A stretch of 64,000 nucleotides of DNA from Bacteroidales bacterium (GTDB lineage Bacteria; Bacteroidota; Bacteroidia; Bacteroidales; P3): assembly GCA_017480785.1 (NCBI GenBank), contig JAFURZ010000005.1, forward strand, positions 16,259 through 80,258, in the 5' to 3' direction. The stretch's first letter is position 1. Each line of letters starts with the position of its first letter. Below the pieces are notes generated by a model. It had not been told where the DNA came from. It worked only from the letters and a program-made list of their open reading frames with translations, and made no database searches. The translations under genes were made by a program, and so were the position numbers. Positions 4,422 to 62,436 of this stretch are shown one piece after another.

Positions 4422-4514
4422 GCCCTAGTAACGCAAAAAAACGCCGCTTATTATGCCGCGGGCAACGTTTTTTGCATCCCGACGCAAGTCCCTCTTTTTC
4501 CCTGCTTTTTCATT

Positions 4515-4566
4515 GCAGTTCGACTTGAGTTCGACTCGAAAACAAGTCGAACTCAAGTCGAACTGC
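4515..4566. repeat. 22-bp perfect-stem palindrome with 11-nt periodic arms
   Basis: gcagttcgacttgagttcgact-cgaaaaca-agtcgaactcaagtcgaactgc. Lies in a divergent intergenic region. Sister copy at 17976-18019. Confidence 0.85.
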
Positions 4567-6243: not shown

Positions 6244-6252
6244 ACCCCACAA

Positions 6253-6423
6253 GTCCCCGCAGGGGACGACACTTCTTAGCCGTGGGCGTAAGCCCACGGG
6301 AACGTGAGAAAAAAACATTATAGAGCCCCGTAGGGGCGACACATTGACAATCTGCCTAGTGCCGCCCCCACGGGGCTCGGTCACATCACTCTTCCTTCAA
6401 CCGTGGGCTTACGCCCACGGCTA
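6253..6423. repeat. Cluster of nested GC-rich REP-like hairpins
   Basis: tagccgtgggcgtaagcccacgg (6277-6299) is inverted at 6401-6423. gagccccgtaggggc (6323-6337) is inverted at 6361-6378. gtccccgcaggggac lies at 6253-6267. Confidence 0.8.
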
Positions 6424-6476
6424 AAACTTTTCGCCCTTAACAGGGCTCTGTTTGCATTATGAGACATCCTCTCTTA

Positions 6477-10678: not shown

Positions 10679-10794
10679 CTCAATCAGAACTGAAAGGATT
10701 TATTCTCAATCAGAACTAAAAGAACTATCAGAATAGGGTCGTATTTCTTTTTGTTCTTTTAGTTCTGATTGAGATTTTGTTTCTGATTGAGATT
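10679..10794. repeat. Composite palindromic element (CAATCAGAAC / GTTCTGATTG family)
   Basis: Nested inverted repeats. Contains the complement of ttctgatagttcttttagttctgattg, the same unit found twice inside ribD. Confidence 0.8.
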
Positions 10795-17900: not shown

Positions 17901-17975
17901 ATTATTTTAAAATATTTCAAATTTAATTATGCCGCAATCCACAAAGCGCTCTTTTCCACCAGCCTTGCAATTGAA

Positions 17976-18019
17976 TTCAACTTGAGTTCGACTTGAAAAC
18001 AAGTCGAACTCAAGTTGAA
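17976..18019. repeat. 19-bp-stem palindrome, sister of 4515-4566
   Basis: ttcaacttgagttcgactt-gaaaac-aagtcgaactcaagttgaa. Confidence 0.85.
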
Positions 18020-18048
18020 CTGAAATCAACAACATGAAAAAGAGGCGG

Positions 18049-23225: not shown

Positions 23226-23242
23226 CCTCCCCTTCACCTCCG

Positions 23243-23339
23243 CCATTTTTACGGTAGTATTACGGTAGTATTACGGTAGTATTACGCTTTAAAAGCGTAA
23301 TACTACCGTAATACTACCGTAATACTACCGTAAAAATGG
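23243..23339. repeat. ~47-bp near-perfect palindrome with TACGGTAGTAT 11-nt x3 arms
   Basis: ccatttttacggtagtattacggtagtattacggtagtattacgcttt | aaaagcgtaatactaccgtaatactaccgtaatactaccgtaaaaatgg. Confidence 0.9.
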
Positions 23340-23394
23340 TAGACCTGACATGGGGTCGAACAAAACTTTTTGCTCACGTATTAAATATTTTTTG

Positions 23395-25654: not shown

Positions 25655-25690
25655 GAAAGCACGCCCCGCGGGGCGTGCTTTCGCCGTTTC
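25655..25690 (+). terminator. Terminator-like hairpin after the EF-G paralog
   Basis: AAAGCACGCCCC/GGGGCGTGCTTT stem followed by TCGCCGTTTC. Near-identical arms occur after tsf (41373-41410). Confidence 0.6.
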
Positions 25691-25745
25691 TATATATATA
25701 TGTATCGCTCACAGGTGTGGCGCATTCACAGCTTTTTTTCACAAT

Positions 25746-25791
25746 CCCGCATCAATGCGAGACCGTTTTGCAGCACTTGCAATGCTCCCCG
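25746..25791 (-). repeat. 46-nt 3' element, copy downstream of the TM2 gene
   Basis: The reverse complement cggggagcattgcaagtgctgcaaaacggtctcgcattgatgcggg matches 56381-56426 at 40/46 positions. Confidence 0.8.
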
Positions 25792-25844
25792 AGCAAACCG
25801 CGGATAAAGATACACTGCTTGCTACATTAACGATTTGGTGACAG

Positions 25845-26282
25845 TTACCTGCTGTTCCATTTTGCCACGCGCTCTGCCCAGCCTTCGTCGTCATCGCAAA
25901 GCCAGACAATGCCTTCTATCAGTCCGATGATGGCTGGGACACCTGTCCAGCAAAAGAGGATGTCCAAAACACCACGCAGGGCTTGCCCTGTGTAGAAGTG
26001 CTGAACGCCAATATCTCCAAGGAGAATCGCAAGCAGGCCTGCTGTCAACTTGTCGGGGTTTTCGCTGAGTTCGAAAACTTCAGCAGACATATCGTTCTCT
26101 GTTGGGAACGATGCATCCTTCACTGCTTCGAAAGAAACAGAAGCAGGTTTTTCCTCGACCTGCTCGGTGAACATTTGGGGGTCGTTAGTGGTGGTGTTCT
26201 CGGGCTCGGCGAGCAATGACTGAGCTGATGCCGTGGCCATGCCCATCATGGCAGCAACGATTAGAGTAAGAACTCTTTTCAT
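25845..26282 (-). CDS. TM2 domain-containing membrane protein
   Basis: 145-aa ORF with a signal peptide and a C-terminal TM2 pattern (LLAILLGDIGVQHFYTGQALRGVLDILFCWTGVPAIIGLIEGI). Visibly less GC-biased than its flanks. Confidence 0.8.
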   Translation of the reverse strand: MKRVLTLIVAAMMGMATASAQSLLAEPENTTTNDPQMFTEQVEEKPASVSFEAVKDASFPTENDMSAEVFELSENPDKLTAGLLAILLGDIGVQHFYTGQALRGVLDILFCWTGVPAIIGLIEGIVWLCDDDEGWAERVAKWNSR

Positions 26283-26516
26283 AGGTGTGGTAATTTTATA
26301 AGGTTTTGTGCATTATTGCCATAAAAAAGGTACGGATGTTTCCGTCTGCCTTACAGGTTTACCACAACCTCCTTTCCCGACGGACACCGTACCATATAAA
26401 GCACGAATGCCCCAACGGGGAAGGATTATGGTGAAGCACTAATCGACTTCGAGGTGGTAATTTGTAAGGCAATTGAGTTCTTCTTGCCGTATGCATATCT
26501 CTCGCAAACGACGGTG

Positions 26517-26584
26517 CAAAAATACAAACTTTCTGCGACGTGACCAAATTTATTTTGCCATGTGGCTGAAATGTTGTATCTTTG
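26517..26584. promoter_or_regulatory. Back-to-back Bacteroides-type promoters (TM2 gene leftward, ribD rightward)
   Basis: Leftward TAttTTTG is the complement of 26517-26524; rightward TAtcTTTG is at 26577-26584. Central CAAA-tttat-TTTG supplies both -33 elements with 19-20 nt spacers. Confidence 0.65.
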
Positions 26585-26594
26585 CACCCTGAAA

Positions 26595-27677
26595 ATGACA
26601 CAGGAAGAGATAGACAAAAAGTATATGCGGCGCTGCCTGCAGCTGGCAGCCAACGGACTGGGTCGCGTGAGGCCCAACCCGTTGGTGGGGTGCGTGGTGG
26701 CGAGGCAAACGGAGAGTGGAGAGTGGAGAGTGGAGAGTGAAGGTTACCACCAATACTATGGCGGATGGCACGCCGAGCGCAACGCACTATTGCGTGCAAG
26801 CCAACTTTCAACTTTCAACTCTCAACTTTCAACTTTATATGTCAACCTCGAGCCCTGCTCGCACTACGGCCACACGCCACCCTGCGCCGACCTCATCATC
26901 GAGAAGGGCATCCGCCGGGTGGTCTGCTGCAACGACGACCCCAACCCCCTGGTGGCGGGGGGCGGCTTCCGCAAGCTGGAGGCCGCCGGCATCGAGGTGG
27001 TGCGTCACGTGCTCGAAGCGGAGGGCCGCGAACTGAACCGCCGCTTCTTCACCTTCATGGAGCAGCAGCGGCCCTACGTCATCCTCAAGTGGGCCGAGAG
27101 CAAGGACGGCTACATGGCGCCAAGCCCTAATTCTCAATCAGAACAAAAAGAAAATTCTGATAGTTCTTTTAGTTCTGATTGCAATAAAAAATACTGGCTC
27201 AGCACGCAGGAGCAGAACCGCCTGAACCACCGCTGGCGCACCGAGGAGGCCGCCATCCTCGTGGGCAGTGAGACCTTCCTGCGCGACCACCCCTCGCTCA
27301 CGGCACGCCACTACCTCGGTTCACAGCCGCAGCCCGTGGTGCTCGACCGCCGCGGACGCTTACTATCCCAATCAGAGGTTATTTCTCAATCAGGACTAAA
27401 AGAAAGTTCTGATAGTTCTTTTAGTTCTGATTGCAACAAAAGAGAATGGCTGGTTCTGCGGAGCCAGACCATCCCCGAGGTGCTGCATGCACTCTACGAG
27501 CACAAGCTGCAGAGCGTCATCGTCGAGGGCGGCCGCCAGATGCTGGACGCCTTCATCGAGAGCGGCCTCTACGACGAGGTGCGCATCCTCCGCAGCCTGC
27601 AGACCCTCGGCAGCGGCCTCAAGGCTCCCGCCATCCCGCCCATCGCCCCCAACCGCCTAATCATCATCGAGCCATGA
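26595..27677 (+). CDS. ribD: Bifunctional riboflavin biosynthesis deaminase/reductase RibD
   Basis: ORF 26562..27677 trimmed to ATG 26595, 10 nt after TAtcTTTG. Motifs RPNPLVGCVV, HAE, LEPCSHYGHTPPC and the reductase motif VIVEGGRQMLDAFIESGLYDEV. Confidence 0.9.
   Translation: MTQEEIDKKYMRRCLQLAANGLGRVRPNPLVGCVVARQTESGEWRVESEGYHQYYGGWHAERNALLRASQLSTFNSQLSTLYVNLEPCSHYGHTPPCADLIIEKGIRRVVCCNDDPNPLVAGGGFRKLEAAGIEVVRHVLEAEGRELNRRFFTFMEQQRPYVILKWAESKDGYMAPSPNSQSEQKENSDSSFSSDCNKKYWLSTQEQNRLNHRWRTEEAAILVGSETFLRDHPSLTARHYLGSQPQPVVLDRRGRLLSQSEVISQSGLKESSDSSFSSDCNKREWLVLRSQTIPEVLHALYEHKLQSVIVEGGRQMLDAFIESGLYDEVRILRSLQTLGSGLKAPAIPPIAPNRLIIIEP
26711..26738 (+). repeat. GGAGAGT x4 heptamer array inside ribD
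   Basis: Four perfect units read as ESGEWRVES. Confidence 0.9.
26803..26837 (+). repeat. AACTTTC x5 heptamer array inside ribD (imperfect inverse of 26711-26738)
   Basis: Units aactttc x2, aactctc, aactttc, aacttta. Read as QLSTFNSQLSTL. Confidence 0.9.
27127..27190 (+). repeat. In-frame palindromic element copy 1 inside ribD
   Basis: aatcagaacaaaaagaa...ttctgatagttcttttagttctgattgcaa. Reads PNSQSEQKENSDSSFSSDCNKK. Confidence 0.85.
27368..27445 (+). repeat. In-frame palindromic element copy 2 inside ribD
   Basis: caatcaggactaaaagaa...ttctgatagttcttttagttctgattgcaa (30 nt identical to copy 1). Reads SQSEVISQSGLKESSDSSFSSDCNKRE. Confidence 0.85.
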
Positions 27678-30210: not shown

Positions 30211-30279
30211 CAAAAGTACAACATTTTCAACAAATAGGCAAAACAATTGTCTCCATCTGGAAAAAAAGTTGTAATTTTG
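30211..30279. promoter_or_regulatory. Back-to-back promoters (T9SS cargo gene leftward, yigZ-like rightward)
   Basis: Leftward TActTTTG is the complement of 30211-30218; rightward TAatTTTG is at 30272-30279, 5 nt before ATG 30285. Confidence 0.6.
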
Positions 30280-34130: not shown

Positions 34131-34134
34131 CACA

Positions 34135-34203
34135 GTGGATAGTGGGCAGTGGGTAGTGGGTAGCACACGTGGTCAGCAGCTACCCACTACCCACTACCCA
34201 CTA
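34135..34203. repeat. GTGGGTA x4 / TACCCAC x3 hairpin between the PorE-like stop and the miaA core
   Basis: gtgggtagtgggtagc (34149-34164) pairs perfectly with gctacccactacccac (34179-34194). Confidence 0.9.
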
Positions 34204-37912: not shown

Positions 37913-37971
37913 TTTACGGTAGTATTACGCTTTTTTCTCGAAGAACAGTAAAAGAACAGTAAAAGAACAAC
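37913..37971. repeat. Composite of the TACGGTAGTAT unit and GTAAAAGAACA units
   Basis: ttttacggtagtattacgctttt (matches an arm of 23243-23339) followed by agaacagtaaaagaacagtaaaagaaca. Confidence 0.75.
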
Positions 37972-38097
37972 CATAGAAATGGCAGAGGCGGCGGGGCGCG
38001 GAGAGCGAGGAGTCGGGGACAATGCCTCCCGGGGACTTGGGCAGCAGCAAAACCTGTTGATTTTGGTGCGTCCATCCCGAGGAAAGAAAAAAAATAT

Positions 38098-41372: not shown

Positions 41373-41410
41373 GAAAGCACGCCCCGCAACGGAGCGTGCT
41401 TTCGTCGTTA
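41373..41410 (+). terminator. Terminator-like hairpin after tsf
   Basis: GAAAGCACGC/GCGTGCTTTC stem followed by GTCGTT. Shares CAGAAAGCACGCCCCGC with 25653-25669. Confidence 0.6.
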
Positions 41411-41423
41411 ATATGCAATATCA

Positions 41424-41485
41424 CCGCGCATCATTGCAAAACCGTGTCGCAGCACTGAAAACTGACTTCGCATCGATGCGGAGGC
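41424..41485 (-). repeat. 3' element, diverged copy downstream of the lipoprotein gene
   Basis: The reverse complement ..cagtgctgcgacacggttttgcaatgatgcgcgg aligns with the 3' two-thirds of 56381-56426. Adjacent palindrome cgcatcgatgcg. Confidence 0.6.
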
Positions 41486-41523
41486 TCTGGTTGAACTAAA
41501 AAACGATCTTGCCTCAATTCTTA

Positions 41524-42308
41524 TTATTCAATCATTTCAACGGTTCTTCCAGACGAAAAGCACTCAAGTGTATTGGGTTCTCCTGTATTGAAATAACACG
41601 GAGATGCAGAAACCATCATGGTAAAAAAACCTATTTTCTTCACCTCACATCTCGTGATATAAAATTTGTTTCTAATCTTTTTCCATTGAGGATTGTCTAT
41701 ATTATTTGAAAAAGTAAGGATGTGTTCACACATAAGATCTTCTTTACTGTATACTCCTTTTTTTCTCTCTAGAGAGTACCTAGAGGGTCTTGTCATTCGG
41801 AAGAACTTGACGTTACTTCTTGAATGAGGAGGGATTCCAACAAAACGTTCTTCTGTGGTCTGAACAAACGTGCCTGATGTAGAAGTTTCCCCCATGTTTA
41901 CACCATTTGCTACGGTTTGAGTTATTGGTCCAGCGCCTACGGCTCTTGTCACCGCACCGGCATTCACATTCATACTCCTGCTTTGGATATTCGTTGTTGT
42001 GACGACAGCATTATTATATATTTTGATAGCGTTTCCATAATTAGTTCCAAGTTCGTTATGTGAAATAAAAAAGGATTCCCCCAGATCAATATATAACATG
42101 CTGTCCGTCTCATTATAAACAAACAATGAACCATCTACATCATATTCTAACCGAATACCTTCATCTGAAATGGAGACTTCCATTCGAGATTGGTTGTCAG
42201 GTTTACATTCAGAATTAACACAGCGAACAGTGTAGGTTAGTCGGTTTACCGGCACGCATGATGTAAAAAGTGTAATTGCTAGGGTAGCAACAAAAAAGTT
42301 TTTTTCAT
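41524..42308 (-). pseudogene. Hypothetical lipoprotein gene, start codon out of frame at an A7/T6 tract; phase-variation candidate (AT-rich islet)
   Basis: The body ORF 41524..42255 is listed from GTG. Upstream, ATG 42308 reads MKKTFLLLP-stop. One extra A (A8) or T (T7) would give MKK(N/T)FFVATLAITLFTSC VPVNRL..., a canonical lipoprotein signal fused to the body. GC content is far below the flanks. No domain recognised. Confidence 0.5.
42292..42305 (-). repeat. A7-C-T6 tract immediately after the ATG of the lipoprotein gene
   Basis: Minus strand reads atg aaaaaaa c tttttt g. A +1 change in either run restores the lipoprotein signal peptide frame. Confidence 0.85.
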
Positions 42309-42560
42309 ATTTTATACCCTAATACGTGCCGGGCGCAACTTTCAAGCTCTTCCGCACCCCGTTGAGCGATTATTAAAGAAGCGTGGTGCCGTCACACCAT
42401 TCTTACATGGAGGTCGTAGGAATTACCTTGAAAAGAGAAGATGCAATAAGCCCACGCTATATAGCGAAGACCATTACACAAATTCTGCTTTTCTCTGGAA
42501 GTTTCCTACGTTTCCATGTACAGAATAAGCGTAAACGCTTCGGTGATTTCCTCATGAAAT
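42309..42560 (-). promoter_or_regulatory. Conserved long 5' leader (copy 1) upstream of the frameshifted lipoprotein gene
   Basis: Aligns block by block with 55647-55880. Shared blocks include GATTTC-N5-GAAATC, CGAAGCGTT, TATAGCGTGG, CAAGGTA, ACCACGCTTCT and CGCTCAACGGGGT. Confidence 0.55.
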
Positions 42561-42566
42561 CGACTG

Positions 42567-42634
42567 CAAAAGTACAAACTTTCTACGACGTGGCCAAATT
42601 TATTTTGCCATGTGGCTGAATTGTCGTATCTTTG
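42567..42634. promoter_or_regulatory. Back-to-back promoters (lipoprotein gene leftward, Bro-N gene rightward)
   Basis: Leftward TActTTTG is the complement of 42567-42574; rightward TAtcTTTG is at 42627-42634. 67/72 identical to 26515-26586. Confidence 0.65.
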
Positions 42635-42657
42635 CAGTCGGAAAACACACATTCGGC

Positions 42658-43497
42658 ATGACGAAGAAGCAAGCAATACAATTCTTTGAGGAGAAGAAGG
42701 TGCGCACCGTGTGGGACGACGAGCAGGAGAAGTGGTATTTCTCCATCGTGGACACCGTGGCGGTGCTGACGGACAGCCCCAATCCGCACAATTATTGGAA
42801 AGTCTTGAAACATAGGCTCAAGAAAGAGGGCAACGAGTCGGTTACAAAATGTAACCAACTGAAATTAATATCGACCGACGGGAAAAGCTACAAGACTGAT
42901 GTCGCCGACACCGAGCAGCTTTTCCGCCTCATCCAGTCCATCCCCTCGCCCAAGGCGGAGCCTTTCAAGCAGTGGATGGCGCAGGTGGCGGCCGAGCGGC
43001 TGGACCAGATGCAGGACCCCGAGCTGGGCATCGAGCAGGCGCTGATGGACTACAAACGGCTGGGCTACTCCGACAACTGGATCAACCAGCGGCTGAAGTC
43101 CATCGAGATACGCAAGGACCTCACCGACGAGTGGAAGCGCCACGGCCTGAAGGAGGGCGTGCAGTTCGCCACGCTGACCGACATCATCTACCATACATGG
43201 TCGGGTATGACCGCCAAGGAGTACAAGCACTTCAAAGGCCTAAAGAAGGAGAATCTGCGCGACAACATGACGAATAGGGAACTCGTCCTCAACATGCTGG
43301 CCGAACTCTCCACCAAGGACATCTCCGAGGCGCGCAACCCCGAGACCTTCGGCGAGCACGCCGAGGTGGCCCGACAGGGCGGCGAGATTGCCGCTGGCGC
43401 CCGCCGTGAGCTTGAAGCCAAGACCGGCAAGCCAGTCGTCACCTCGCTCAACGCCAAGGACGTGTTGCAGATTGAAGACAAAGCCACCGAAAAGTAA
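42658..43497 (+). CDS. Bro-N domain protein (DinD/antirepressor-like C-terminal half)
   Basis: ORF 42610..43497 trimmed to ATG 42658. Bro-N-like FEEKKVRTVWDDEQEKWYFSIVDTVAVL. The C-terminal part resembles DNA-damage-inducible protein D-type proteins. Confidence 0.75.
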   Translation: MTKKQAIQFFEEKKVRTVWDDEQEKWYFSIVDTVAVLTDSPNPHNYWKVLKHRLKKEGNESVTKCNQLKLISTDGKSYKTDVADTEQLFRLIQSIPSPKAEPFKQWMAQVAAERLDQMQDPELGIEQALMDYKRLGYSDNWINQRLKSIEIRKDLTDEWKRHGLKEGVQFATLTDIIYHTWSGMTAKEYKHFKGLKKENLRDNMTNRELVLNMLAELSTKDISEARNPETFGEHAEVARQGGEIAAGARRELEAKTGKPVVTSLNAKDVLQIEDKATEK

Positions 43498-45727: not shown

Positions 45728-45795
45728 CAAAGATACAAAAGTTGTACGAGATGACAAAATTAATTTTGCCACGTCGCGGAATATGTGTATCTTTG
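45728..45795. promoter_or_regulatory. Back-to-back promoters (comM/yifB leftward, sodB rightward)
   Basis: Leftward TAtcTTTG is the complement of 45728-45735; rightward TAtcTTTG is at 45788-45795. Central CAAA-attaat-TTTG with 19-nt spacers. Confidence 0.65.
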
Positions 45796-47146: not shown

Positions 47147-50100
47147 ATGGTTAGAAGAATCTACGTAGAGAAGAAATCCCCCTATGCCGTGAAGGCGAAG
47201 GAGCTCAAGACCGAAATGAGCGAATACCTCGGCATCGAAGCCGACGTGGTACGCGTGCTGGTGCGCTACGACGTGGAGAATGTCAGCGACGCCACCTTCC
47301 ACACCGCGCTGACCACCGTCTTCAGCGAGCCTCCGGTGGACGACGTGTACCTCGAAGAGTTTCCCCGCAAGGAGAACGACTTCTGCTTCACCGTGGAGTA
47401 CCTCCCCGGCCAGTTCGACCAACGGGCCGACAGCGCCGAGCAGTGCGTCTGCCTCCTCAACGACGCCGAGCACCCCATCATCAAGTCTGCCACCACCTAC
47501 GTCATCTCTGGAGTGGATAGCGGGAAGTGGAAAGAGGACAGCGACTGGCAATCGGCCATCATCGCCCACTGCGTCAATCCGGTCGACAGCCGCCGTGCCG
47601 ACGGTCCCAAACCAGACACCCTCGAGGACCACTTCGACGAGCCTGCCGACGTCATCACCTTCGACGGCTTCAAGGACATGCCCGAGCCGCAGCTGAAAAG
47701 CCTTTACGACGGCCTCGGACTGGCCATGACCTTCGCCGACTTCCTGCACATCCAGCGCTACTTCCACGACGAGGAGCACCGCGACCCCACGATGACCGAA
47801 ATCCGCGTCCTCGACACCTACTGGAGCGACCACTGCCGCCACACCACCTTCGCCACCGAGCTGAAGGACGTCCGCTTCGACGACGGCTTCTACCGCCCCC
47901 TCATCGAGGGCGCCTTCCGGCAGTACCTCGCCGACCACCGCGAGCAGTATGCCGGACGCACCGACAAGTACGTCTGCCTGATGGATATCGGCACCCTGGC
48001 GGCCAAACGGCTCAAGAAAGCCGGCTACCTCGACGACCAGGAGCCCAGCGACGAAATCAACGCCTGCTCCATCGTGGTGCCCGTCACCATCGACGGCAAC
48101 CGCGAGGAGTGGCTCATCAACTTCAAGAACGAGACCCACAACCACCCCACCGAGATTGAGCCCTTCGGCGGCGCGGCCACCTGCCTCGGCGGCTGCATCC
48201 GCGACCCGCTCAGCGGCCGCACCTACGTCTACCAGGCCATGCGCGTCACCGGCGCCGCCGACCCCACCAAGCCCCTCAGCGAGACCCTCCCCGGCAAGCT
48301 GCCCCAGCGCAAGATTGTCACCACCGCCGCCCGCGGCTACTCCAGCTACGGCAACCAGATAGGCCTCGCCACAGGGCTAGTCAACGAGATATACCATCCC
48401 AACTACGTAGCCAAGCGCCTGGAGATAGGCGCCGTCATCGCCGCCGCCCCGCGCCGTGCCGTGAAGCGCCTCACCTCCGACCCGGGCGACGTCATTATCC
48501 TGCTTGGTGGCCGCACCGGCCGCGACGGCATCGGCGGCGCCACGGGTGCCTCGAAGAGCCACACCAGCAAGTCGCTCACCACCTGCGGCGCCGAGGTGCA
48601 GAAGGGCAACGCCCCCACCGAACGCAAGATACAACGCCTCTTCCGCCGCGAAGAGGTCAGCAGCCTCATCAAGAAGTGCAACGACTTCGGCGCCGGCGGC
48701 GTCAGCGTGGCCATCGGCGAACTGGCCGACGGACTCCAAATCAACCTCGACCGCGTACCCAAGAAGTATGCCGGCCTCGACGGCACCGAACTCGCCATCA
48801 GCGAGAGCCAGGAGCGCATGGCCGTGGTGGTCGACCCCAAGGATGTGGACCAGATGCTGCGCTACGCCGACGAGGAGAACCTCGAAGCCACCGTCGTGGC
48901 CACCGTCACCGAGGAGCCCCGCATGGTCATCTCTTGGCGCGGCAAAGAGATAGTGAACCTCAGCCGCCGCTTCATCGACACCAACGGCGCCCACCAGGAA
49001 ACCACCGTGAAGGTGAAGATGCCCGAGAAAATTGAAAATGGAAAATTGAAAATTGAAAATTCGCTGCCGCACCCGGATAATTCTCAATTCTCAACTCTCA
49101 ATTCTCAATTGAAGGACCTTTGGTTCCAGACCCTCTCCGACCTCAACGTCTGCTCGCAGAAAGGCCTCGTCGAGATGTTCGACAGCTCCATCGGCGCCGG
49201 CAGCGTGGTGATGCCCTTCGGCGGCCGCTACCAGCTGACGCCCACGCAGTGCATGATAGGCAAGCTGCCCCTCCTGGACGGCAAGTGCGACACCGTGACC
49301 CTCATGTCCTACGGCATGGACCCCTACCAGACCTCGTGGAGTCCCTTCCACGGCGCCGCCTATGCCGTGCTCGGCAGCGTGGCCAAGATTGCCGCCGCCG
49401 GCGGCGACGTCAGCCGCGTGCGCCTCACCTTCCAAGAATACTTCAAGAAACTGGGCACCGACCCCTACCGCTGGGGCGAGCCCTTCACCGCCCTCCTCGG
49501 CGCCTACCACGCCCAGATGGGCCTCCACCTACCCGCCATCGGCGGCAAGGACTCCATGTCCGGCACCTTCAACGACATCGACGTGCCGCCCACCTTCTGC
49601 TCCTTCGCCGTCGGCGTCAGCGACCTGCAGCACGTCGTCACCCCCGAGCTGAAGAAAGCCGGCAACCGGCTGGTGCTGCTCGATGTCAAGGAGGACCAGT
49701 ACGGCATGCCCGACTATGCCGACGCCCTCAACCAGTACGCCGCCCTGCACCGCGCCGTCGAGGCCGGCCGGGTGTGCAGCGCCTATGCCCTCGGCATGGG
49801 CGGCATCGTCGAGGCCGTCAGCAAGATGGCCTTCGGCAACAAGCTGGGCGTCCGCATGGCCCCCGTGCCCGAGACATCAGCCTCGGGTCTCGCCGCCAAG
49901 CACTATGGCTGGCTTGTCGTCGAGGTAGCCGGCACAGAAGAGCTGCCCTTCCGCTGCACCGGGATTGGCGAGGTCACCGCCGAGCCCGTGTTCGAGGTGG
50001 CCGGCGAGAAGATAAGCCTCGACGAGGCCCTCGCCGCATGGCAGAAGACGCTCGAAGGCGTCTTCCCCACCCGTAGCACCCAGCAAGCGGAAAGTGGAAA

Positions 50101-50977
50101 GTGGAAAGTGGAAAGCGCTCTGTACAACACTCCGAAGGAGAAACTTTCAACTTTCAACTATCAACTTTCAAGTTCCGCGAAGCCGAGAGTCTTCATCCCC
50201 GCCTTCCCCGGCACCAACTGCGAGTACGACTCGGCCCGCGCCTTCAACCGCGCCGGTGCCGAGAGCGAAATCATCGTCTTCCGCAACCAGAACGGCCAGC
50301 AGATTCGCGAGAGCGTGGACGCCTATGTCGACGCCATCCGCCGCAGCCAGATTATCATGCTGCCCGGCGGCTTCAGTGCCGGCGACGAACCCGAAGGCAG
50401 TGCCAAATTCATCACCAGCGTCTTCCGCAACCCCAAGATTGCCGACGCCGTGATGGAGCTGCTCCAGAAGCGCGACGGCCTCATGCTGGGCATCTGCAAC
50501 GGCTTCCAGGCCTTGGTGAAGCTCGGCCTGGTGCCCTACGGCGAGATACGTCCGCAGGCCGCCGACGCCCCCACGCTGACCTTCAACACCATCGGCCGCC
50601 ACCAGAGCAAGATGGCCTACACCCGCGTCAGCTCCAACCTCAGCCCCTGGCTGCGCAAGGCCGAACTCGGCGCCACCTACGTCATTCCCATCTCGCACGG
50701 CGAGGGCCGCTTCGTGGCCCCGCAGGAATGGATTGACAGCCTCTTCCGGAACGGACAGGTGGCCACACAGTACTGCGACCTCGACGGCAACCCCACCATG
50801 GACGAGGAGTACAACATGAACGGCTCCTACTGCGCCATCGAAGGCATCACCAGCCCCGACGGACGCGTCTTCGGCAAGATGGGACACAGCGAACGCCGCA
50901 GCAAAGGCAGCGCCCTCAATATCTATGGCAACGACGACCAGCAGATATTCGAGAGCGGCGTACAGTACTTCAAGTAG
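47147..50977 (+). CDS. purL: Phosphoribosylformylglycinamidine synthase (single-chain)
   Basis: 1276-aa ORF with NHPTEIEPFGGAATCLGGCIRD, a repeated AIR-synthase-like core and a C-terminal glutaminase (GICNGFQAL, SHGEGR). Two in-frame heptamer hairpins. Confidence 0.97.
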   Translation: MVRRIYVEKKSPYAVKAKELKTEMSEYLGIEADVVRVLVRYDVENVSDATFHTALTTVFSEPPVDDVYLEEFPRKENDFCFTVEYLPGQFDQRADSAEQCVCLLNDAEHPIIKSATTYVISGVDSGKWKEDSDWQSAIIAHCVNPVDSRRADGPKPDTLEDHFDEPADVITFDGFKDMPEPQLKSLYDGLGLAMTFADFLHIQRYFHDEEHRDPTMTEIRVLDTYWSDHCRHTTFATELKDVRFDDGFYRPLIEGAFRQYLADHREQYAGRTDKYVCLMDIGTLAAKRLKKAGYLDDQEPSDEINACSIVVPVTIDGNREEWLINFKNETHNHPTEIEPFGGAATCLGGCIRDPLSGRTYVYQAMRVTGAADPTKPLSETLPGKLPQRKIVTTAARGYSSYGNQIGLATGLVNEIYHPNYVAKRLEIGAVIAAAPRRAVKRLTSDPGDVIILLGGRTGRDGIGGATGASKSHTSKSLTTCGAEVQKGNAPTERKIQRLFRREEVSSLIKKCNDFGAGGVSVAIGELADGLQINLDRVPKKYAGLDGTELAISESQERMAVVVDPKDVDQMLRYADEENLEATVVATVTEEPRMVISWRGKEIVNLSRRFIDTNGAHQETTVKVKMPEKIENGKLKIENSLPHPDNSQFSTLNSQLKDLWFQTLSDLNVCSQKGLVEMFDSSIGAGSVVMPFGGRYQLTPTQCMIGKLPLLDGKCDTVTLMSYGMDPYQTSWSPFHGAAYAVLGSVAKIAAAGGDVSRVRLTFQEYFKKLGTDPYRWGEPFTALLGAYHAQMGLHLPAIGGKDSMSGTFNDIDVPPTFCSFAVGVSDLQHVVTPELKKAGNRLVLLDVKEDQYGMPDYADALNQYAALHRAVEAGRVCSAYALGMGGIVEAVSKMAFGNKLGVRMAPVPETSASGLAAKHYGWLVVEVAGTEELPFRCTGIGEVTAEPVFEVAGEKISLDEALAAWQKTLEGVFPTRSTQQAESGKWKVESALYNTPKEKLSTFNYQLSSSAKPRVFIPAFPGTNCEYDSARAFNRAGAESEIIVFRNQNGQQIRESVDAYVDAIRRSQIIMLPGGFSAGDEPEGSAKFITSVFRNPKIADAVMELLQKRDGLMLGICNGFQALVKLGLVPYGEIRPQAADAPTLTFNTIGRHQSKMAYTRVSSNLSPWLRKAELGATYVIPISHGEGRFVAPQEWIDSLFRNGQVATQYCDLDGNPTMDEEYNMNGSYCAIEGITSPDGRVFGKMGHSERRSKGSALNIYGNDDQQIFESGVQYFK
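49027..49110 (+). repeat. GAAAATT x5 / AATTCTC x4 inverted heptamer arrays inside purL
   Basis: Left arm 49027-49061, right arm 49079-49110. Reads KIENGKLKIENSLPHPDNSQFSTLNSQL. Confidence 0.9.
50089..50171 (+). repeat. GGAAAGT x4 / AACTTTC x4 inverted heptamer arrays inside purL
   Basis: Left arm 50089-50116, right arm 50142-50171. Reads ESGKWKVESALYNTPKEKLSTFNYQL. Confidence 0.9.
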
Positions 50978-54981: not shown

Positions 54982-55049
54982 CAAAATTACACATTTTCGG
55001 GCAATTGGCAAAATATATTTTGCAGAATGGAATAAATGTAGTACTTTTG
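54982..55049. promoter_or_regulatory. Back-to-back promoters (pepD leftward, 55074 gene rightward)
   Basis: Leftward TAatTTTG is the complement of 54982-54989; rightward TActTTTG is at 55042-55049. Central CAAA-atatat-TTTG with 19-nt spacers. Confidence 0.65.
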
Positions 55050-55073: not shown

Positions 55074-55481
55074 ATGGACATTCCGCAAGGAAACACGAAA
55101 GAAGAGCTCAAGCAGCGCGAGGAGATAATCTCGCAGGTGTACCGCCGCTGGACGGAGGAAAACCCCGACAAGCGCGTCTACAACCGCTCGCTAAAGGACT
55201 ACATCAACATCCGCTACCTCTCTATCACCGAGACGATGCGTCACGCCGCCAAAACCTACGCATCCACGCTGGCGATGCTGCAACTGGACACCATTTTGCG
55301 CTACTCCGTCAAATTCGGTAAGCCTAAACCGCCCAAGAAAGGGGTGAAAAACCAGGAAATCTTCACATTGATGCAGGAGATGCATTGCGAGCTGGTAGGC
55401 ATCGGGACCGTGAAGATGATGGTCGGGATCAAACGCTCGGGAGAGAAGATACAGTATTGTATCACAGCCATTACGGCATAA
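55074..55481 (+). CDS. Hypothetical protein
   Basis: ORF 55005..55481 trimmed to ATG 55074, after TActTTTG at 55042-55049. 135 aa with no domain recognised. Confidence 0.5.
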   Translation: MDIPQGNTKEELKQREEIISQVYRRWTEENPDKRVYNRSLKDYINIRYLSITETMRHAAKTYASTLAMLQLDTILRYSVKFGKPKPPKKGVKNQEIFTLMQEMHCELVGIGTVKMMVGIKRSGEKIQYCITAITA

Positions 55482-55572: not shown

Positions 55573-55641
55573 CAAAAGTACAACTTTTTTTCGGACTGAC
55601 AAAATTTATTTTTGCCAGTCCGATTTATTTATGTATTTTTG
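55573..55641. promoter_or_regulatory. Promoter module upstream of the small OMP gene; its leftward half has no target gene
   Basis: Leftward TActTTTG is the complement of 55573-55580; rightward TAttTTTG is at 55634-55641 with TTTG at 55611-55614 (19-nt spacer). Confidence 0.6.
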
Positions 55642-55646
55642 CAGCC

Positions 55647-55880
55647 GATTTCGGAAGGAAATCTTCGAAGCGTTATATCTTCGTCTTGCGATTGGGAATG
55701 TGAGAAGTTCATCGATAAGCGAGATAGGTATGATGGTTCGCGTGTATAGCGTGGACTTTATATCACATCTGCTTATCAAGGTATTCTCACAACCTCCAAT
55801 CGAAGAAGTGGTGTACGGTACCACGCTTCTGTTTTAACCGCTCAACGGGGTACGGGAGAGCACGAAAAAAACTAATAATA
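55647..55880 (+). promoter_or_regulatory. Conserved long 5' leader (copy 2) upstream of the small OMP gene
   Basis: Same blocks in the same order as 42309-42560 (minus). 5'-terminal hairpin GATTTC(55647-52)/GAAATC(55658-63). Confidence 0.55.
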
Positions 55881-56351
55881 ATGAAAAGATTAACGGTAAT
55901 TGCAGTGCTCATTCTTTTTTTAGCTTCAATGCAAGCAAACGCACAAACCACAGATGACCAACAAAAGATGGATTACACGAGAGGTAGTGGCTTTGTAATT
56001 CGTCCTGAATTAAACAATGGTCTACTTGCTACATTAGGTTACCAAATTAACCCTTATGTAATGTTAGAAGGGAGCCTTGGTTTTGATTTGTCGGGCTCTG
56101 CAGCCATGACTACGGTTATCGGTGTCAGGGCATACACTTCTAGCAAGCCTTGGGCCGCTTTTTTTGATTATCGTGTTGGCGCAGAAAGCGTCTCGGGATA
56201 TAGCATAACTAGACATACGATTGTTGCAGGTGCAGCATATAAAGACTTTGATTTTGGAGCCGGTGTAATATTCGGCACTGATGGGACGACAAGTGTCACA
56301 GGTCTATCCATCTCAATTGGATATAATATTCGCTGCTACAAGCACCGATAA
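55881..56351 (+). CDS. Small exported beta-barrel-like protein (AT-rich islet)
   Basis: 156-aa ORF with signal peptide MKRLTVIAVLILFLASMQANAQ and a short barrel-like pattern ending GLSISIGYNIRCYKHR. Markedly AT-richer than its flanks. Confidence 0.6.
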   Translation: MKRLTVIAVLILFLASMQANAQTTDDQQKMDYTRGSGFVIRPELNNGLLATLGYQINPYVMLEGSLGFDLSGSAAMTTVIGVRAYTSSKPWAAFFDYRVGAESVSGYSITRHTIVAGAAYKDFDFGAGVIFGTDGTTSVTGLSISIGYNIRCYKHR

Positions 56352-56380
56352 CAGTCCGTTTAACGCCATCTGTAAATGTG

Positions 56381-56426
56381 CGGGAAGCATTGCAAGTGCT
56401 GCGAAACAGTCGCGCATTGATGCGCT
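56381..56426 (+). repeat. 46-nt 3' element, copy downstream of the small OMP gene
   Basis: cgggaagcattgcaagtgctgcgaaacagtcgcgcattgatgcgct. Contains the near-palindrome agcattgcaagtgct and the palindrome gcgcattgatgcgc. Confidence 0.8.
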
Positions 56427-56481
56427 GCGATTTTTCGCGGTTGCTCGAAAGGGTGCTGATGTTGTCGAGAGGACGGGGGCT

Positions 56482-59057: not shown

Positions 59058-62000
59058 CTAATGGTGGATTACGAGTGTTTGATGGGCACGTCCGGTGGCT
59101 GTCACGAGCCGTAGCAGGTAGACACCGTCGGGGAGGGACGGGAAGCGGTAGGTGGCGGGGGCTACATGGCGCGTCGAGAAACAGAGGCGGCCGTAGAGGT
59201 CGAGCACCTGCAGTTCACCCTGCCCGCCGCCGTCCACCGTCACCGTGCCGTTGCACGGGTTGGGGAAGACATGCAGCGACGGCAGGCCGGGCTGCACTAT
59301 GCCGAGCCGGGTGCTGTCGCCAAACCAGCCATAGGCCGAATCCCACAGCGCCAGCGGAAGCCTCACGTCGTCAATCCACGCACAGTCGCTGCCGGCCGAG
59401 CCGCTCTCGTCCTTCACATAGCGCCACCGCAGCGTGTGGCGGCCGGCGTCGAGCACCGTCGTGTAGCATTTCCATCCGGCTTCGCCCCACCGTTCGTTGC
59501 CGCGCCGCACGCCGTCGACCGAGAAGAGCAGCTTGTCATACTGCGCCTCGCTCGACACCCGCGACCAGTAGCTGAGCGTGTCGCGTTGGGGGAGCAGCAC
59601 CTCGAGGACGAGGTCCGAGGTCTGGCGGTAGTCGATGGCACCGCTGCGCACGCTGAAGCGGCCGCTGTGACTCACCGTGCTATCCACCACCCACGGCTGC
59701 GTGCCGCCCTGTTGCCACGGATAGCTGGCGAAGCCCTCCTCGAAGCTGTCGGCCCGTTGGCCGCCGACCATGTACCAGTCGTAGTCCCTGCGGTGGTTGC
59801 CCAGCGCGACGGAGGCCTGCAGGTGCAGGTGGGTCAGGGTGTCGTCGGGGGTGGAGAATGGAGAGTGGAGAGTGGGGAGTGGAGAGCGGAAAGTGGAAAG
59901 CGTATCGCCCGAAGGGAGTGCGGTGAGGCCGAGGCTCACGCTGTCGCACGACCCCTCGACGGTGGTCTGAAGCAAGTATGTGTGCATCGGCAGCAAGCGG
60001 TTTGTCTCGCTGCTGTCGGCCTCCAGCAGGCGGACCGAGAGTTCGGGATAGCGAGGTTCCAGCCGCCCTTGCAGCCTGATGCAGCACAGCATCCCCTCGA
60101 TGCTGTCCCAGGCGAAGAGGTACGCCTGCCAGCCCGGCTGCTGTCCCACGGCAACCAGCTGCAACGGCACCGCCACCCGACGACTCTGGTGCGGCAGCAG
60201 GGTGTCGACCACCGTCTGTTGCTCTGCGACCAAGGCGTCGGCAGCACTGTCGGCATCAATCTGCGACAGCACCACCCGCAGGCCGTAGAGCGGCACCGCG
60301 CCCACGTTCTCCACGCGGCACTCCACCACGCTGTCGCCGACCGTCACTTCACGCAGCGCCACCCCAGTGCCTTCGGCAGCCGCCACAGTCAGCGTGTCAA
60401 TCCGCGGCCGGTGGTGACGGGCTGTGGCCGTGAGGACGAGCAGCGAGGTGTCGACCGACTGACCGAGCTGCAACGCCAGCAGTCCGTCGGGACCCATCAC
60501 GCCCATGCCCAGCACCGTGTCGTGCTGCATGGCCGTGACCGTACAGCCCGGCGTGCCGCCCAGATGCAGCGTGCCCGCGCCGTCAGTCGGCTGCCCGTTG
60601 GTCAGGTGCAGCTCGAGGGGCTGCGGAACACCCACCCAAGGCTCGAGCGACGGGTCTCCCAGCAGGCAGTAGGTCTCCCAGTAGAACTTGTCGTAGGGCG
60701 ACCCCACCGCCGTGACCGCCAGGTTGCCGGCCGTCAGCAGCTCGCCTTGGCTGTGCACCCCACCCGTGCGGCCCAGCCACCGGTCGAACGGACCGGGGCG
60801 CAGGCTGTCGTACTGCGGCGTGAGGCTCAGCGGGAGCTTCGGCCCCACGGCCCAGTAGTAGTCCTCGTCCCAGAGGGTGGAGTTGGTGGCGCCGATGACG
60901 CCGATGGCGCCGCCGTCGGCCTTGCGCAGCAGCTGCTCGCCGAAGCAGGTGCCGTCGAAGGCGTTGCTCAGGCAGCAGTTGTTCACGTAGAGGAGCGGCT
61001 GCGGGTTGTCGAGGGTGTCGATGCTGGTGAAGGTCACCGACGGACTGGTCCAGCCGGCGGAGGTGCAATGGGCCGTATAGTTGAGCAAGGCCACGCCGCG
61101 GCGCAGGTCGCCGAGGATGGCCGGCCGTTGGTCGGCCGAGGCGGGGTTGTGGTAACACAGGGTGTCGAGGAAGGGATGCGCCAGACGTGCCTCACGCGCC
61201 ACATAGTCCACCTGCCCGTTGGTGGTCACCGGTGCCGGCGCGCGGTCTTCGCTTCCGGCCACCAGCAGCAGGCGCTTCAGGCGTGCAGTGTCGATGTCGG
61301 CGCCCTGCTCGTAGCGGATGCACTTACGCACCACGGCGCCCAGCTCGGCGGTGTCGTTCACCGGCCAGCGGCCCAGCAACGCGTCGGGCAGGTAGTCGCC
61401 CGTGAACTCGGCATAGTAGAGGTCGGTGACGTGGTTGCCGAGGCCGGTGGGATGTGTGGTGCCCGGGAAAGCCTGCAGCAGCGCCACATCGCCCACCAGC
61501 AGCACGTGGCGCGGTCCACGGCTGCCGTCGGCGCTCCAGAGGGGGCGCATCAGGGCCTTCACGCTGTCGCGCAGGTGGGTGTCGACATAGAGCTCCATCA
61601 CCTCGAAGCCCTGCTGCCGTTTCCAGCGTACAAAAGGCTGCAATCCTTCGCGGAACAGCGGCCGCGACACAACCAGATAGCCATGGGTGCCAAGCGACGG
61701 GGAGGCGGCCTTGCCGACATGCAGCAGCGCGTCGACCGAGGTATCGCACTCCAGAAGGCCGTCCACGGGCCGGTAGCCCACGGGGCGCACCGTCACCCGG
61801 AACAGCTGCTCTGCTCCCATCACGCCGAGGAGCTCCACCTCCACCCGCCCGCCGCCGCGGTAAAGGTCGCCGGAGCCATACACCTTCGCGTCGGGACAGT
61901 AGTCGGGCGGCAGCCCGTCCTTGACCCATCCCTCCGTCACCGGTGCCAGGGGGCGGCCCTGCGGCACGACATCCATCGACACGGTGCCGGTCGACCGCAC

Positions 62001-62329: not shown

Positions 62330-62377
62330 AGAAAAAAAAACGACATCGACCGTCATTTAACACGGTCATTTCCCGCC

Positions 62378-62436
62378 CTGTTCTTTTACTGTTCTTTTAC
62401 TGTTCTTTTACCGTTCTTTACAAATTCGTAAAGAAC
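62378..62436. repeat. CTGTTCTTTTA x3 tandem units followed by a hairpin
   Basis: ctgttcttttactgttcttttactgttctttta + ccgttctttac-aaattc-gtaaagaac. Confidence 0.8.

What the first reader, a model, noticed from the sequence alone, without database searches (positions are those of the whole stretch)
41424..42636. Candidate single-gene cassette architecture: promoter module + long leader + variable exported-protein gene + 3' element
Three units have the same layout: 25746-26586 (minus), 41424-42636 (minus) and 55573-56426 (plus). Each has a ~68-bp back-to-back promoter module, then a 220-250 nt leader. Next comes one small gene for a secreted or membrane protein (TM2 protein, lipoprotein, small beta-barrel protein) whose composition is clearly AT-richer than the surrounding housekeeping genes. 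The 46-nt element closes each unit. Each unit sits right after the terminator of a conserved gene (EF-G paralog, tsf) or beside yidD. No integrase or transposase is present in the window. It looks like a mobile or duplicative cassette system for surface proteins, which I cannot place in a known class; it is not an integron attC, an IS or a MITE with TIR/TSD as far as I can see. Caveat: only two of the three leaders are clearly homologous.
Basis: partly seen in the sequence, partly recalled or inferred. Interest (0 to 1): 0.7.

Follow-up and report, generated by a model that had tools for sequence, protein, structure and literature searches.

The report
Shared RNA leader on envelope genes
Three small envelope-protein genes in this rumen Bacteroidales genome are each built the same way, with a two-way promoter, a previously undescribed folded RNA leader that looks like an on/off switch, the gene, and a 42-base tandem repeat before the terminator; they look like members of one regulatory design rather than a mobile cassette system.

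Summary
All three units have a 68-69-nt back-to-back promoter, a 230-260-nt leader, one small exported or membrane protein gene with foreign codon usage, and the 3' element (3 copies found, 0 expected by chance).

- **Promoter module:** this is the genome's generic divergent promoter. There are six copies in the window, and three of them serve housekeeping genes.
- **Leader:** this is the real novelty. All three leaders, including unit A, belong to one structured RNA family with no Rfam match.
  - The family lies upstream of small 8-stranded beta-barrel, lipoprotein, HTH and TM2 genes in many gut and rumen Bacteroidales contigs.
  - Helices P1 and P2 covary strongly.
  - A segment of the apical hairpin is always complementary to the bases just before a U-run, in three different sequence versions. 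I read this as a terminator/antiterminator-type switch with an unknown signal.
- **The "46-nt element":** this is the junction of two 42-nt tandem repeat units in the 3' UTR. There are six units behind a TM2 ortholog, and two behind sodB in another genome.
- **Mobility:** whole units occur as low-GC blocks in different genomic contexts, and unit B is a mosaic. I found no recombinase, terminal inverted repeats or precise boundaries.

The parts
26517..26584 (.). Unit A: 68-nt back-to-back Bacteroidetes-type promoter module (ribD leftwards partner on + strand; leader/TM2 on - strand)
   Evidence: Regex CAAAnnTA..TAnnTTTG. It is 90% identical to the unit B module over 81 nt and 85-88% identical to the L051 module.
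26283..26515 (-). Unit A leader RNA, a divergent member of the family. P1 is GCCUUAC/GUAAGGC, the internal loop is AAA/ACCU, and P2 is UUACCAC/GUGGUAA (core 26348-26470). a3 is GGUACGG. t is CCGUACC at 26329-26335, followed by U6 at 26323-26328. A copy of the 5' strand lies just before the ATG.
   Evidence: Descriptor scan. Fold z=-4.1. a3:t pair table. Conserved in L051.
25845..26282 (-). Unit A gene: TM2-domain membrane protein (145 aa)
   Evidence: Pfam PF05154 E=1.3e-11. 139 homologs, mostly from Bacteroidales metagenome contigs.
25729..25812 (-). Unit A 3' UTR: two 42-nt repeat units.
25655..25682 (.). Bidirectional terminator hairpin GAAAGCACGC..GCGTGCTTTC, shared with the EF-G paralog
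42567..42634 (.). Unit B: 68-nt back-to-back promoter module (Bro-N gene on + strand; leader/lipoprotein on - strand)
42307..42565 (-). Unit B leader RNA. The covariance-model core is 42372-42525. The downstream conserved domain CUCAACGGGGUGCGGAAGAGC is at about 42345-42371.
   Evidence: Model R1 130 bits. Fold z=-5.2. No Rfam hit.
41524..42306 (-). Unit B gene: lipoprotein-like protein. It is frameshifted in the A7 run after the ATG at 42306. The continuous ORF is 41524-42255.
   Evidence: No Pfam match. GC3 0.33. Unrelated to operon partner X.
41408..41491 (-). Unit B 3' UTR: two 42-nt repeat units (cores at 41479 and 41437)
   Evidence: 82% identical to units 4-6 of the L051 array.
41373..41403 (.). 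Bidirectional terminator hairpin shared with tsf
55573..55641 (.). Unit C: 69-nt back-to-back promoter module
55641..55880 (+). Unit C leader RNA. The covariance-model core is 55684-55835. The local terminator-like hairpin is 55808-55824 plus a U-run. The conserved domain CUCAACGGGGUACGGGAGAGC is at about 55840-55861.
   Evidence: Model R1 134 bits. Fold z=-5.1. Terminator-like hairpin.
55881..56351 (+). Unit C gene: small 8-stranded outer-membrane-type beta-barrel (156 aa). The family has no Pfam model.
56360..56443 (+). Unit C 3' UTR: two 42-nt repeat units (core 56381-56426). There is no GAAAGCACGC terminator here. yidD ends at 56482.

Best explanation
The three units are independent single-gene transcription units that share one regulatory design rather than one mobility mechanism.

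**How a unit is built and read (shown, unless marked inferred)**
1. Transcription starts at one side of a compact two-way Bacteroidetes-type promoter (-33 TTTG, -7 TAnnTTTG on each strand). This genome uses the same design at many divergent gene pairs.
2. The first 230-260 nt of the transcript is a member of a previously undescribed structured leader RNA family.
   - It forms a long irregular hairpin: outer helix P1, a conserved internal loop (AA(A) opposite ACCY), helix P2, further helices, and an apical hairpin.
   - The 3' half of the apical hairpin (a3) is always complementary to the 6-10 nt (t) that directly precede a U-run. The U-run lies 45-150 nt upstream of the start codon.
3. No promoter lies between the U-run and the gene, so the gene can only be expressed by read-through.

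**Inferred mechanism**
- The leader is a cis-acting switch of the riboswitch or attenuator type.
- t pairs either with a3 or with a nearer segment. In the B/C-type copies that nearer pairing makes a local terminator hairpin.
- The 3' strand of P1/P2 can pair either with its 5' partner or with a mimic of that partner located next to the start codon.
- An unknown signal that stabilises one fold would therefore decide whether transcription, and perhaps translation, proceeds into the envelope-protein gene.

**The 3' UTR**
- It is a short tandem array of 42-nt repeats (core GCAWYGATGCG plus CAGYGCTG) ahead of an intrinsic terminator.
- Its role is unknown. It could be a protein-binding or RNA-stability element.

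**Origin (inferred)**
- Units B and C, and less clearly A, were acquired horizontally as promoter-leader-gene blocks from lower-GC Bacteroidales.
- Ordinary recombination between similar flanks explains the mosaic of unit B.
For: **The leader is a conserved structured RNA**
- Model R1 and a descriptor find it only upstream of, and co-oriented with, the genes concerned, in the window and in 12 or more distinct contigs.
- On the model alignment 90% of cells are paired, against 60% in shuffles and 30-47% when the partners are slid. 20 of 26 pairs have compensatory changes. Every P1 pair and 7 of 8 P2 pairs have compensatory changes, most with 3-4 pair types.
- The hand-listed P1 and P2 helices are fully paired in all 11 copies, with very different sequences.
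- There is no Rfam 15 match in the seven contigs tested, with E-value limits of 1 or 5.

**a3:t pairing**
- It is complementary in every copy, in three different sequence versions: GCGUGG/CCACGC, GGUACGG/CCGUACC (unit A and L051) and GUGGAGC/GCUCCAC (L044).
- t always abuts the U-run.
- The 8-pair helix is 93% paired, 7 of 8 pairs have double changes, and 0 of 2000 shuffles do as well.

**Alternative pairings**
- Terminator-like hairpins containing t.
- In unit A the 5' strand is duplicated next to the ATG, and the minimum-energy fold uses that copy.

**Varied downstream genes**
- The barrel alone, the lipoprotein X + barrel operon, an HTH gene, lipoprotein B and TM2.

**Other points**
- Generic promoter: six modules in the window.
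- 3' array.
- Foreign composition.
- No conserved leader peptide: the 36-codon ORF in leader C is interrupted in B and L016 (read directly from the sequences).
Against: - There are no expression or termination data. All sequences come from metagenome assemblies.
- Without unit A and L044, the a3:t helix is conserved rather than covarying: 77.5% paired against 75% in shuffles. I chose the register for unit A by eye.
- The model alignment is fitted to the model's own structure and contains one probably spurious row.
- If P1 and P2 stay formed, a3:t would be a pseudoknot. I cannot say whether it is the terminator stem or an antiterminator.
- The closest barrel homologs in L006 (73%) and L015 (80%) do not show the leader, and many distant barrel loci lack it.
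- The strict 3-of-3 association of the 42-nt repeat with leader units in this genome is not explained by this model.
Confidence: 0.6

Rival explanations
1. This is the first reader's reading: a cassette system. In it the promoter module and the 42-nt repeat array are recombination boundaries. They would be used by a recombinase encoded elsewhere, comparable to attC/attI or to Xer-dependent dif modules. Leader-gene cassettes would be inserted, duplicated or swapped between these boundaries.
For: - Whole units occur as low-GC blocks in unrelated contexts.
- Unit B has TM2-type flanks around a foreign interior.
- Similarity is mosaic: promoter A~B 90%, leader B~C, repeat A~C 91%, repeat B~L001.
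- The repeat is found at 3 of 3 units and at no other gene in the window.
- The repeat units are built of short palindromes (CAGCGCTG, TTGCAA, GCATTGATGC) with a 42-bp period, which is four helical turns and would suit protein binding on DNA.
- The site next to tsf is variable among congeners.
Against: - No integrase, transposase or Xer-like gene was found among about 26 ORFs checked.
- The units are 15 kb apart rather than in an array, and each has its own promoter.
- The same promoter design serves housekeeping genes.
- The repeat follows sodB without a leader in L001.
- Block ends differ between comparisons: stop codon + 11 nt for C/L016, but inside the repeat array for A/L051.
- No terminal inverted repeats flank the units in the repeat scan, and I did not look for target duplications.
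- The element has 0 hits in IMG/VR and JGI metagenomes and 1 in 185,579 species genomes. It therefore behaves like a lineage-specific sequence rather than a widespread mobile site.
Confidence: 0.15
2. The leader is a free-standing small RNA gene of about 170-190 nt that ends at the U-run and acts in trans. The downstream genes would merely be neighbours transcribed by leaky read-through.
For: - A strong promoter, a compact stable fold and a terminator-like 3' end.
- In L042 and L036 the barrel gene has its own promoter downstream of the RNA and an intervening HTH gene.
Against: - In the window, L016, L043, L040 and L044 only 45-110 nt lie between the U-run and the start codon, and no TTTG/TAnnTTTG promoter is present there.
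- Orientation and position relative to the gene are fixed in all copies.
- The stretch between the U-run and the ATG is itself conserved and complementary to the 3' strand of the hairpin.
- Three to four diverged copies per genome, each tied to its own gene, is atypical for a trans-acting RNA.
Confidence: 0.15
3. There is nothing special here. The similarities would be generic promoter and terminator consensus plus chance.
For: The promoter module is indeed generic.
Against: - The 3' element has 3 matches with 0 expected.
- The leaders are homologous across distant genomes, with compensatory changes.
- The descriptor has no false positives in 781 kb of strand sequence searched.
Confidence: 0.03

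Closest known systems
Transcription-terminating riboswitches and orphan riboswitch candidates found by comparative genomics (for example the motifs of Weinberg et al. 2010, PMC2864571)
   Same: - A structured 5' leader conserved across genomes, with covarying helices and conserved internal loops.
- A position fixed upstream of, and co-oriented with, a functionally related set of genes.
- A U-run preceded by a segment with alternative pairing partners.
   Different: - No ligand or trans-factor is known.
- It matches none of the 4227 Rfam 15 families.
- The regulated genes are small envelope proteins of unknown function rather than metabolic or transport genes.
- The pairing with the pre-U-run segment is long-range, reaching back to the apical hairpin.
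Integron gene cassettes (ORF + attC, captured by IntI at attI)
   Same: Single small genes of foreign composition, each closed by a conserved, partly palindromic 3' element.
   Different: - Each unit has its own promoter and a long leader.
- The units are dispersed rather than arrayed.
- No intI or attI was found.
- The 3' element is a 42-nt tandem repeat, not an attC hairpin.
- It also follows a housekeeping gene in another genome.
dif modules of Acinetobacter plasmids (genes bracketed by XerC/D sites, with no recombinase nearby). This comparison is from my own knowledge.
   Same: Discrete gene modules with conserved short boundary sequences and no adjacent recombinase. Modules show a mosaic distribution.
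   Different: - No 28-bp XerC-spacer-XerD site was recognised.
- Only one boundary (the 3' side) carries the repeat.
- This comparison was not tested with tools.
Small 8-stranded outer-membrane beta-barrels (OmpA/OprF N-domain, NspA, Opa60, PagL)
   Same: The unit C protein has a signal peptide and 8 predicted antiparallel strands. The best Foldseek hits are these proteins.
   Different: The similarity is weak (TM 0.45-0.5, E about 0.01). There is no Pfam match above threshold. The family has its own conserved C-terminus, GYNIRCYKHR.

Membership tests
Any described RNA family (Rfam 15) | Covariance-model match at or near the gathering score | tested here: not met
   There is no hit on any leader or on the 3' array. 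I tested the whole window at gathering threshold. I also tested unit B (E up to 5), five divergent loci (E up to 1) and L051 (E up to 1).
Riboswitch / transcription-attenuator leader | A conserved secondary structure supported by compensatory base changes | tested here: met
   90% paired, 20 of 26 pairs with double changes, slid controls 30-47%. All copies have the P1 and P2 helices, although the sequences differ.
Riboswitch / transcription-attenuator leader | Located in the 5' UTR, on the same strand, with no intervening promoter | tested here: met
   The exception is L042/L036, where the barrel gene has its own promoter and the leader precedes an HTH gene.
Riboswitch / transcription-attenuator leader | An expression platform with mutually exclusive pairings that involve a terminator | tested here: inconclusive
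   - a3:t complementarity is kept in three sequence versions, and t abuts the U-run.
- Local terminator-like hairpins exist in B/C-type copies.
- Which pairing terminates transcription is inferred, not shown.
Riboswitch / transcription-attenuator leader | Direct binding of a ligand or factor that changes the fold | not testable with these tools
   This needs in-line probing or reporter assays.
Integron cassette | Promoterless ORF + attC, arrayed next to intI/attI | tested here: not met
   Each unit has its own promoter. The units are about 15 kb apart. No integrase domain was found in the ORFs scanned.
IS / MITE | Terminal inverted repeats and target-site duplication at the unit ends; a transposase for an IS | tested here: inconclusive
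   - The repeat scan shows no terminal inverted repeats flanking the units.
- The ends of the homologous blocks differ between comparisons.
- I did not search systematically for target duplications.
- No transposase was found in the ORFs scanned.
Bacteroidetes primary-sigma promoter | -33 TTTG and -7 TAnnTTTG with about 19-21 nt between them | tested here: met
   The pattern is present on both strands of all six modules. The consensus itself is from my own knowledge of the literature. No transcription start data are available.
TM2 domain proteins (PF05154) | Pfam match above the gathering score | tested here: met
   45 bits against a cutoff of 27.9.

The most novel reading that the evidence does not exclude
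The leader is a new riboswitch class, or a leader that binds an RNA-binding protein, and it senses an envelope-related signal. Together with the 42-nt repeat array it forms a portable expression module. Within that module, horizontally acquired envelope-protein genes are exchanged by recombination between conserved flanks. This would be a cassette system without a dedicated integrase, in uncultured rumen Bacteroidales.
Probability: 0.15. Interest if true: 0.8.

Novelty: new member of a known kind. Interest (0 to 1): 0.6.

Why it matters
- Few regulatory RNAs are known in Bacteroidales. Their small outer-membrane proteins and TM2 proteins have no known function or regulation.
- A conserved leader that ties together a small beta-barrel family, its partner lipoprotein, an HTH gene and a TM2 protein defines a regulon. 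It also gives a concrete handle (reporter fusions, in-line probing) for finding the signal these envelope proteins respond to.
- The 42-nt 3' arrays and the mosaic unit B raise a testable question: are regulatory flanks reused to domesticate foreign genes?
- For annotation, the work shows that the 'cassette boundaries' are regulatory elements rather than mobile-element ends.

Tried and rejected
- **Collection scans for the 3' element.** There was 1 hit in 185,579 species genomes (after sodB), 0 in IMG/VR and 0 in JGI metagenomes. A leader pattern in IMG/VR also gave 0. The lineage is poorly sampled there, so copy numbers per genome could not be obtained.
- **Rfam.** Nothing was found for the leader or the array.
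- **Leader-peptide attenuation.** The 36-codon ORF in leader C is not conserved in B or L016, so I rejected this.
- **Homology between lipoprotein B and operon partner X.** None was found.
- **A conserved divergent partner gene as part of the unit.** The partners are ribD, Bro-N, a DEAD-box helicase and an unknown 163-aa protein, so there is no common partner.
- **Model R1 on leader A.** It gave no hit. Membership rests on the descriptor and on the a3:t pairing.
- **Tandem Repeats Finder on the L051 array.** It found nothing because the units are too diverged. The period was established from the spacing of the core motif.
- **A clean empty-site test at tsf.** This was not possible, because synteny breaks there in every congener.
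- **The 3' repeat in L016/L017.** Its absence could not be established, because those contigs end 54-71 nt after the stop codon.
- **Literature searches.** Two full-text searches found no description of such a motif.
Full report
**Source and setting**

The window is about 60% GC. Its promoters are of the Bacteroidetes type. Proteins encoded in it are found, identical, on contigs of ruminant gastrointestinal metagenomes and in an NCBI assembled genome labelled 'Bacteroidales bacterium'. No tRNA genes lie in the window, and the only Rfam families present are two Acido-Lenti-1 copies far from the finding.

**Check of the observation**

Reading the three regions and aligning them confirms the common layout.

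- **Promoter module.** It is 68-69 nt long and symmetric, with a -7 box (TAnnTTTG) facing outward at each end and two -33 TTTG elements at the centre.
- **Leaders.** They are 233, 259 and 240 nt long and fold far better than shuffled controls, with z-scores of -4.1, -5.2 and -5.1.
- **Genes.**
  - A TM2-domain protein.
  - A lipoprotein-like protein. Its ATG at 42306 is separated by a frameshift in an A7 run from the signal peptide and lipobox cysteine. Gene callers on other samples also start it downstream.
  - A 156-aa protein predicted with confidence to be an 8-stranded beta-barrel. Its weak structural matches are OprF-N, NspA, Opa60 and PagL.
- **Codon GC3.** It is 0.33 for B, 0.34 for C and 0.57 for A, against 0.85-0.89 for neighbouring housekeeping genes.
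- **3' element.** It occurs exactly three times, once per unit, with none expected by chance.

**The promoter module is generic**

The same 68-69-nt design occurs six times in the window. Besides the three units it lies at 30211-30279, at 45728-45795 (comM/sodB) and at 54982-55049 (M20 peptidase/LPD3-like gene). Nearly all strict promoter matches in the window fall inside these modules. Congeneric genomes have the same back-to-back arrangement with other spacings.

However, the A and B modules (90% identical over 81 nt) and the module of L051 (85-88%) are much closer to each other than to the rest. They are true homologs.

**The leader is a conserved structured RNA**

The beta-barrel protein has only 45 homologs in 5.8 billion clusters, all from Bacteroidales metagenomes. 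I fetched their loci and 29 further loci from JGI metagenomes. A sequence homologous to leaders B and C lies upstream of the gene or its operon in many of them, including AT-rich genomes.

A covariance model built from six copies found 13 correctly placed and oriented copies. These included a diverged subgroup with an extra hairpin.

On the model alignment:
- 90% of cells are paired, against 60% in column shuffles and 30-47% when the partners are slid.
- 20 of 26 pairs show compensatory changes.
- Every pair of P1 and 7 of 8 pairs of P2 show compensatory changes, most with three or four pair types.

Independent minimum-energy folds of eleven copies give the same architecture: P1, an internal loop AA(A) opposite ACCY, P2, further helices, and an apical hairpin.

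I wrote a descriptor from P1, the loop and P2 alone. Over 390 kb, both strands, it recovers the known copies and exactly one more, the leader of unit A. So all three units carry the same RNA family, although A is unrecognisable by sequence. A further divergent copy was found in L044.

None of the copies matches any Rfam 15 family. Two full-text literature searches found no description.

**A switch-like feature**

In every copy the 6-10 nt immediately before a U-run (t) are complementary to the 3' half of the apical hairpin (a3), 63-83 nt upstream.

- In most copies the pair is (A/G)GCGUGG with CCACGC(U/C). Covariation there is weak because the core is invariant.
- In unit A and its ortholog L051 the pair is GGUACGG with CCGUACC.
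- In L044 it is GUGGAGC with GCUCCAC.
- With unit A included, the 8-pair helix is 93% paired, 7 pairs show double changes, and no shuffle out of 2000 does as well.
- I chose the register for A by anchoring on the U-run, so this is suggestive rather than formal proof.

t also has a nearer partner:
- In B/C-type copies it is the 3' arm of a local terminator-like hairpin.
- In the diverged subgroup the 3' strand of P2 duplicates a3 and could form an 8-bp hairpin with t.

In unit A the 5' strand of P1/P2 is duplicated next to the start codon, and the minimum-energy fold uses that copy. In B/C-type copies the conserved stretch CUCAACGGGGYRCGGRAGAGC between the U-run and the ATG mimics the 5' strand in the same way.

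No promoter lies between the U-run and the gene, and no conserved leader peptide exists. I therefore infer a cis-acting attenuator or riboswitch-like switch. I cannot tell whether a3:t is the terminator stem or an antiterminator pseudoknot.

**Genes under the leader**

They are:
- the barrel alone (window C, L016, L043, L040, L044);
- an operon of an uncharacterised lipoprotein-like protein X plus the barrel (L008, L011, L020, L021);
- a small HTH gene, followed by the barrel with its own promoter (L042, L036);
- lipoprotein B, which is unrelated to X;
- the TM2 protein (window A, L051).

The closest barrel homologs in L006 and L015, and many distant ones, do not show the leader.

**The 3' element is part of a 42-nt tandem repeat**

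The one hit among species genomes (L001) lies behind sodB, a GC-rich housekeeping gene with a short ordinary leader.

The TM2 ortholog locus L051 (80% amino-acid identity) resolved the element's nature. Its 3' UTR contains the core GCAnn(G/T)ATGCG six times, at spacings of 42, 42, 42, 41 and 42 nt, followed by a terminator.

Aligning 42-nt windows from all loci gives one repeat family. Each window copy, and L001, has two units.

The units are strings of short palindromes. As RNA the six-unit array folds into a long nested structure with z=-5.4. The function is unknown. A 42-bp period equals four DNA helical turns, so a DNA-level protein-binding role is as plausible as an RNA-level one.

The array is absent from 79 kb of four congeners and from all other loci.

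**Mobility**

- Window A 25721-26598 matches L051 3788-4675 at 85% over 893 nt. The match runs from the promoter through the first repeat units. The neighbours differ: EF-G paralog and ribD in the window, against an unknown gene and DUF1016/asnS in L051.
- Window C 55555-56362 matches L016 at 84%, from the promoter to 11 nt past the stop codon. The upstream neighbour differs. The L016 and L017 contigs end too soon to say whether a repeat follows.
- Unit B is a mosaic. Its promoter (88%) and its whole 3' UTR (82% to units 4-6) match the TM2-type unit of L051. Its leader is C-type. Its proximal 5' UTR and first codons resemble the barrel unit of L044.
- In four congeners the rplM-rpsI-rpsB-tsf cluster is conserved, but the next gene differs in each one.

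These facts show horizontal acquisition and recombination of whole units. I found no dedicated machinery:
- No recombinase was found among about 26 ORFs.
- No terminal inverted repeats were seen.
- The block ends are inconsistent between comparisons.

The neighbours Bro-N, the LPD3-like gene and DUF1016 hint at mobile-element debris, but they are not shared between units.

**Verdict**

The cassette interpretation is partly supported as a description (modular, horizontally moving, mosaic units) but not as a mechanism.

The substantive discovery is a new family of structured leader RNAs with a switch-like long-range pairing. It controls small envelope proteins in gut and rumen Bacteroidales.

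A lineage-restricted 42-nt 3' repeat is strictly associated with the leader units in this genome, and that association remains unexplained.

Noticed in passing
window 26699-26739 and 26803-26849 (ribD); 49030-49111 and 50077-50174 (purL): Pairs of heptamer-repeat arrays lie in frame inside conserved housekeeping genes. Examples are (GGAGAGT)n with (AACTTTC)n and (GAAAATT)n with (AATTCTC)n. They encode loops such as ESGEWRVES and QLSTFNSQLST, and the ORFs stay open. This resembles the in-frame Rickettsia palindromic elements.
   Followed up: partly
window 34134-34203, 23234-23348, 4485-4565, 17942-18032, 5842-5878, 18363-18398, 59834-59902, 1174-1240, 62355-62421, 37935-37978, 10745-10789, 27155-27181, 27407-27433: The same kind of 7- or 11-nt tandem arrays occur in intergenic DNA, often as near-perfect inverted pairs (for example 57 nt at 93% complementary at 23234-23348). 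They may act as terminators, or they may be a family of small repeat elements.
   Followed up: no
window 6252-6299 (-) and 6401-6447 (+): Two Acido-Lenti-1 RNA (RF01687) matches above the gathering score form an inverted pair 101 nt apart. This motif was described from Acidobacteria and Lentisphaerae, and here it is in a Bacteroidales genome.
   Followed up: no
window 42296-42306 (- strand): The start of the lipoprotein B gene reads ATGAAAAAAAC TTTTTTG. The ATG is out of frame with the signal peptide and lipobox by one base in an A7/T6 run. The same reading appears in other samples. It could be a pseudogene or a slippage-prone, phase-variable start.
   Followed up: partly
L051 4584-4834: Behind a TM2 ortholog there are six tandem 42-nt repeats, then a terminator. 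As RNA the array folds into a long nested hairpin (z=-5.4).
   Followed up: yes
window 55881-56351; alignment A3: The small beta-barrel belongs to a compact family with no Pfam model (45 clusters, Bacteroidales only). It has an invariant C-terminus, GYNIRCYKHR. In many genomes it is the second gene of an operon with an uncharacterised lipoprotein-like partner that carries the motif INGYKYLCMEEQGN.
   Followed up: partly
window 42658-43497 (+) and 55074-55481 (+); L051 4877-5893: Genes typical of mobile-element debris sit next to the units: a Bro-N domain protein beside B, an LPD3-like protein with low GC3 (0.48) beside C, and a DUF1016/YhcG nuclease beside the L051 unit. None is shared between units.
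   Followed up: partly
window 41334 onward; L047-L050 position about 10990: The position just downstream of tsf is a synteny breakpoint. Five genomes with Tsf 87-100% identical each have a different gene there.
   Followed up: yes
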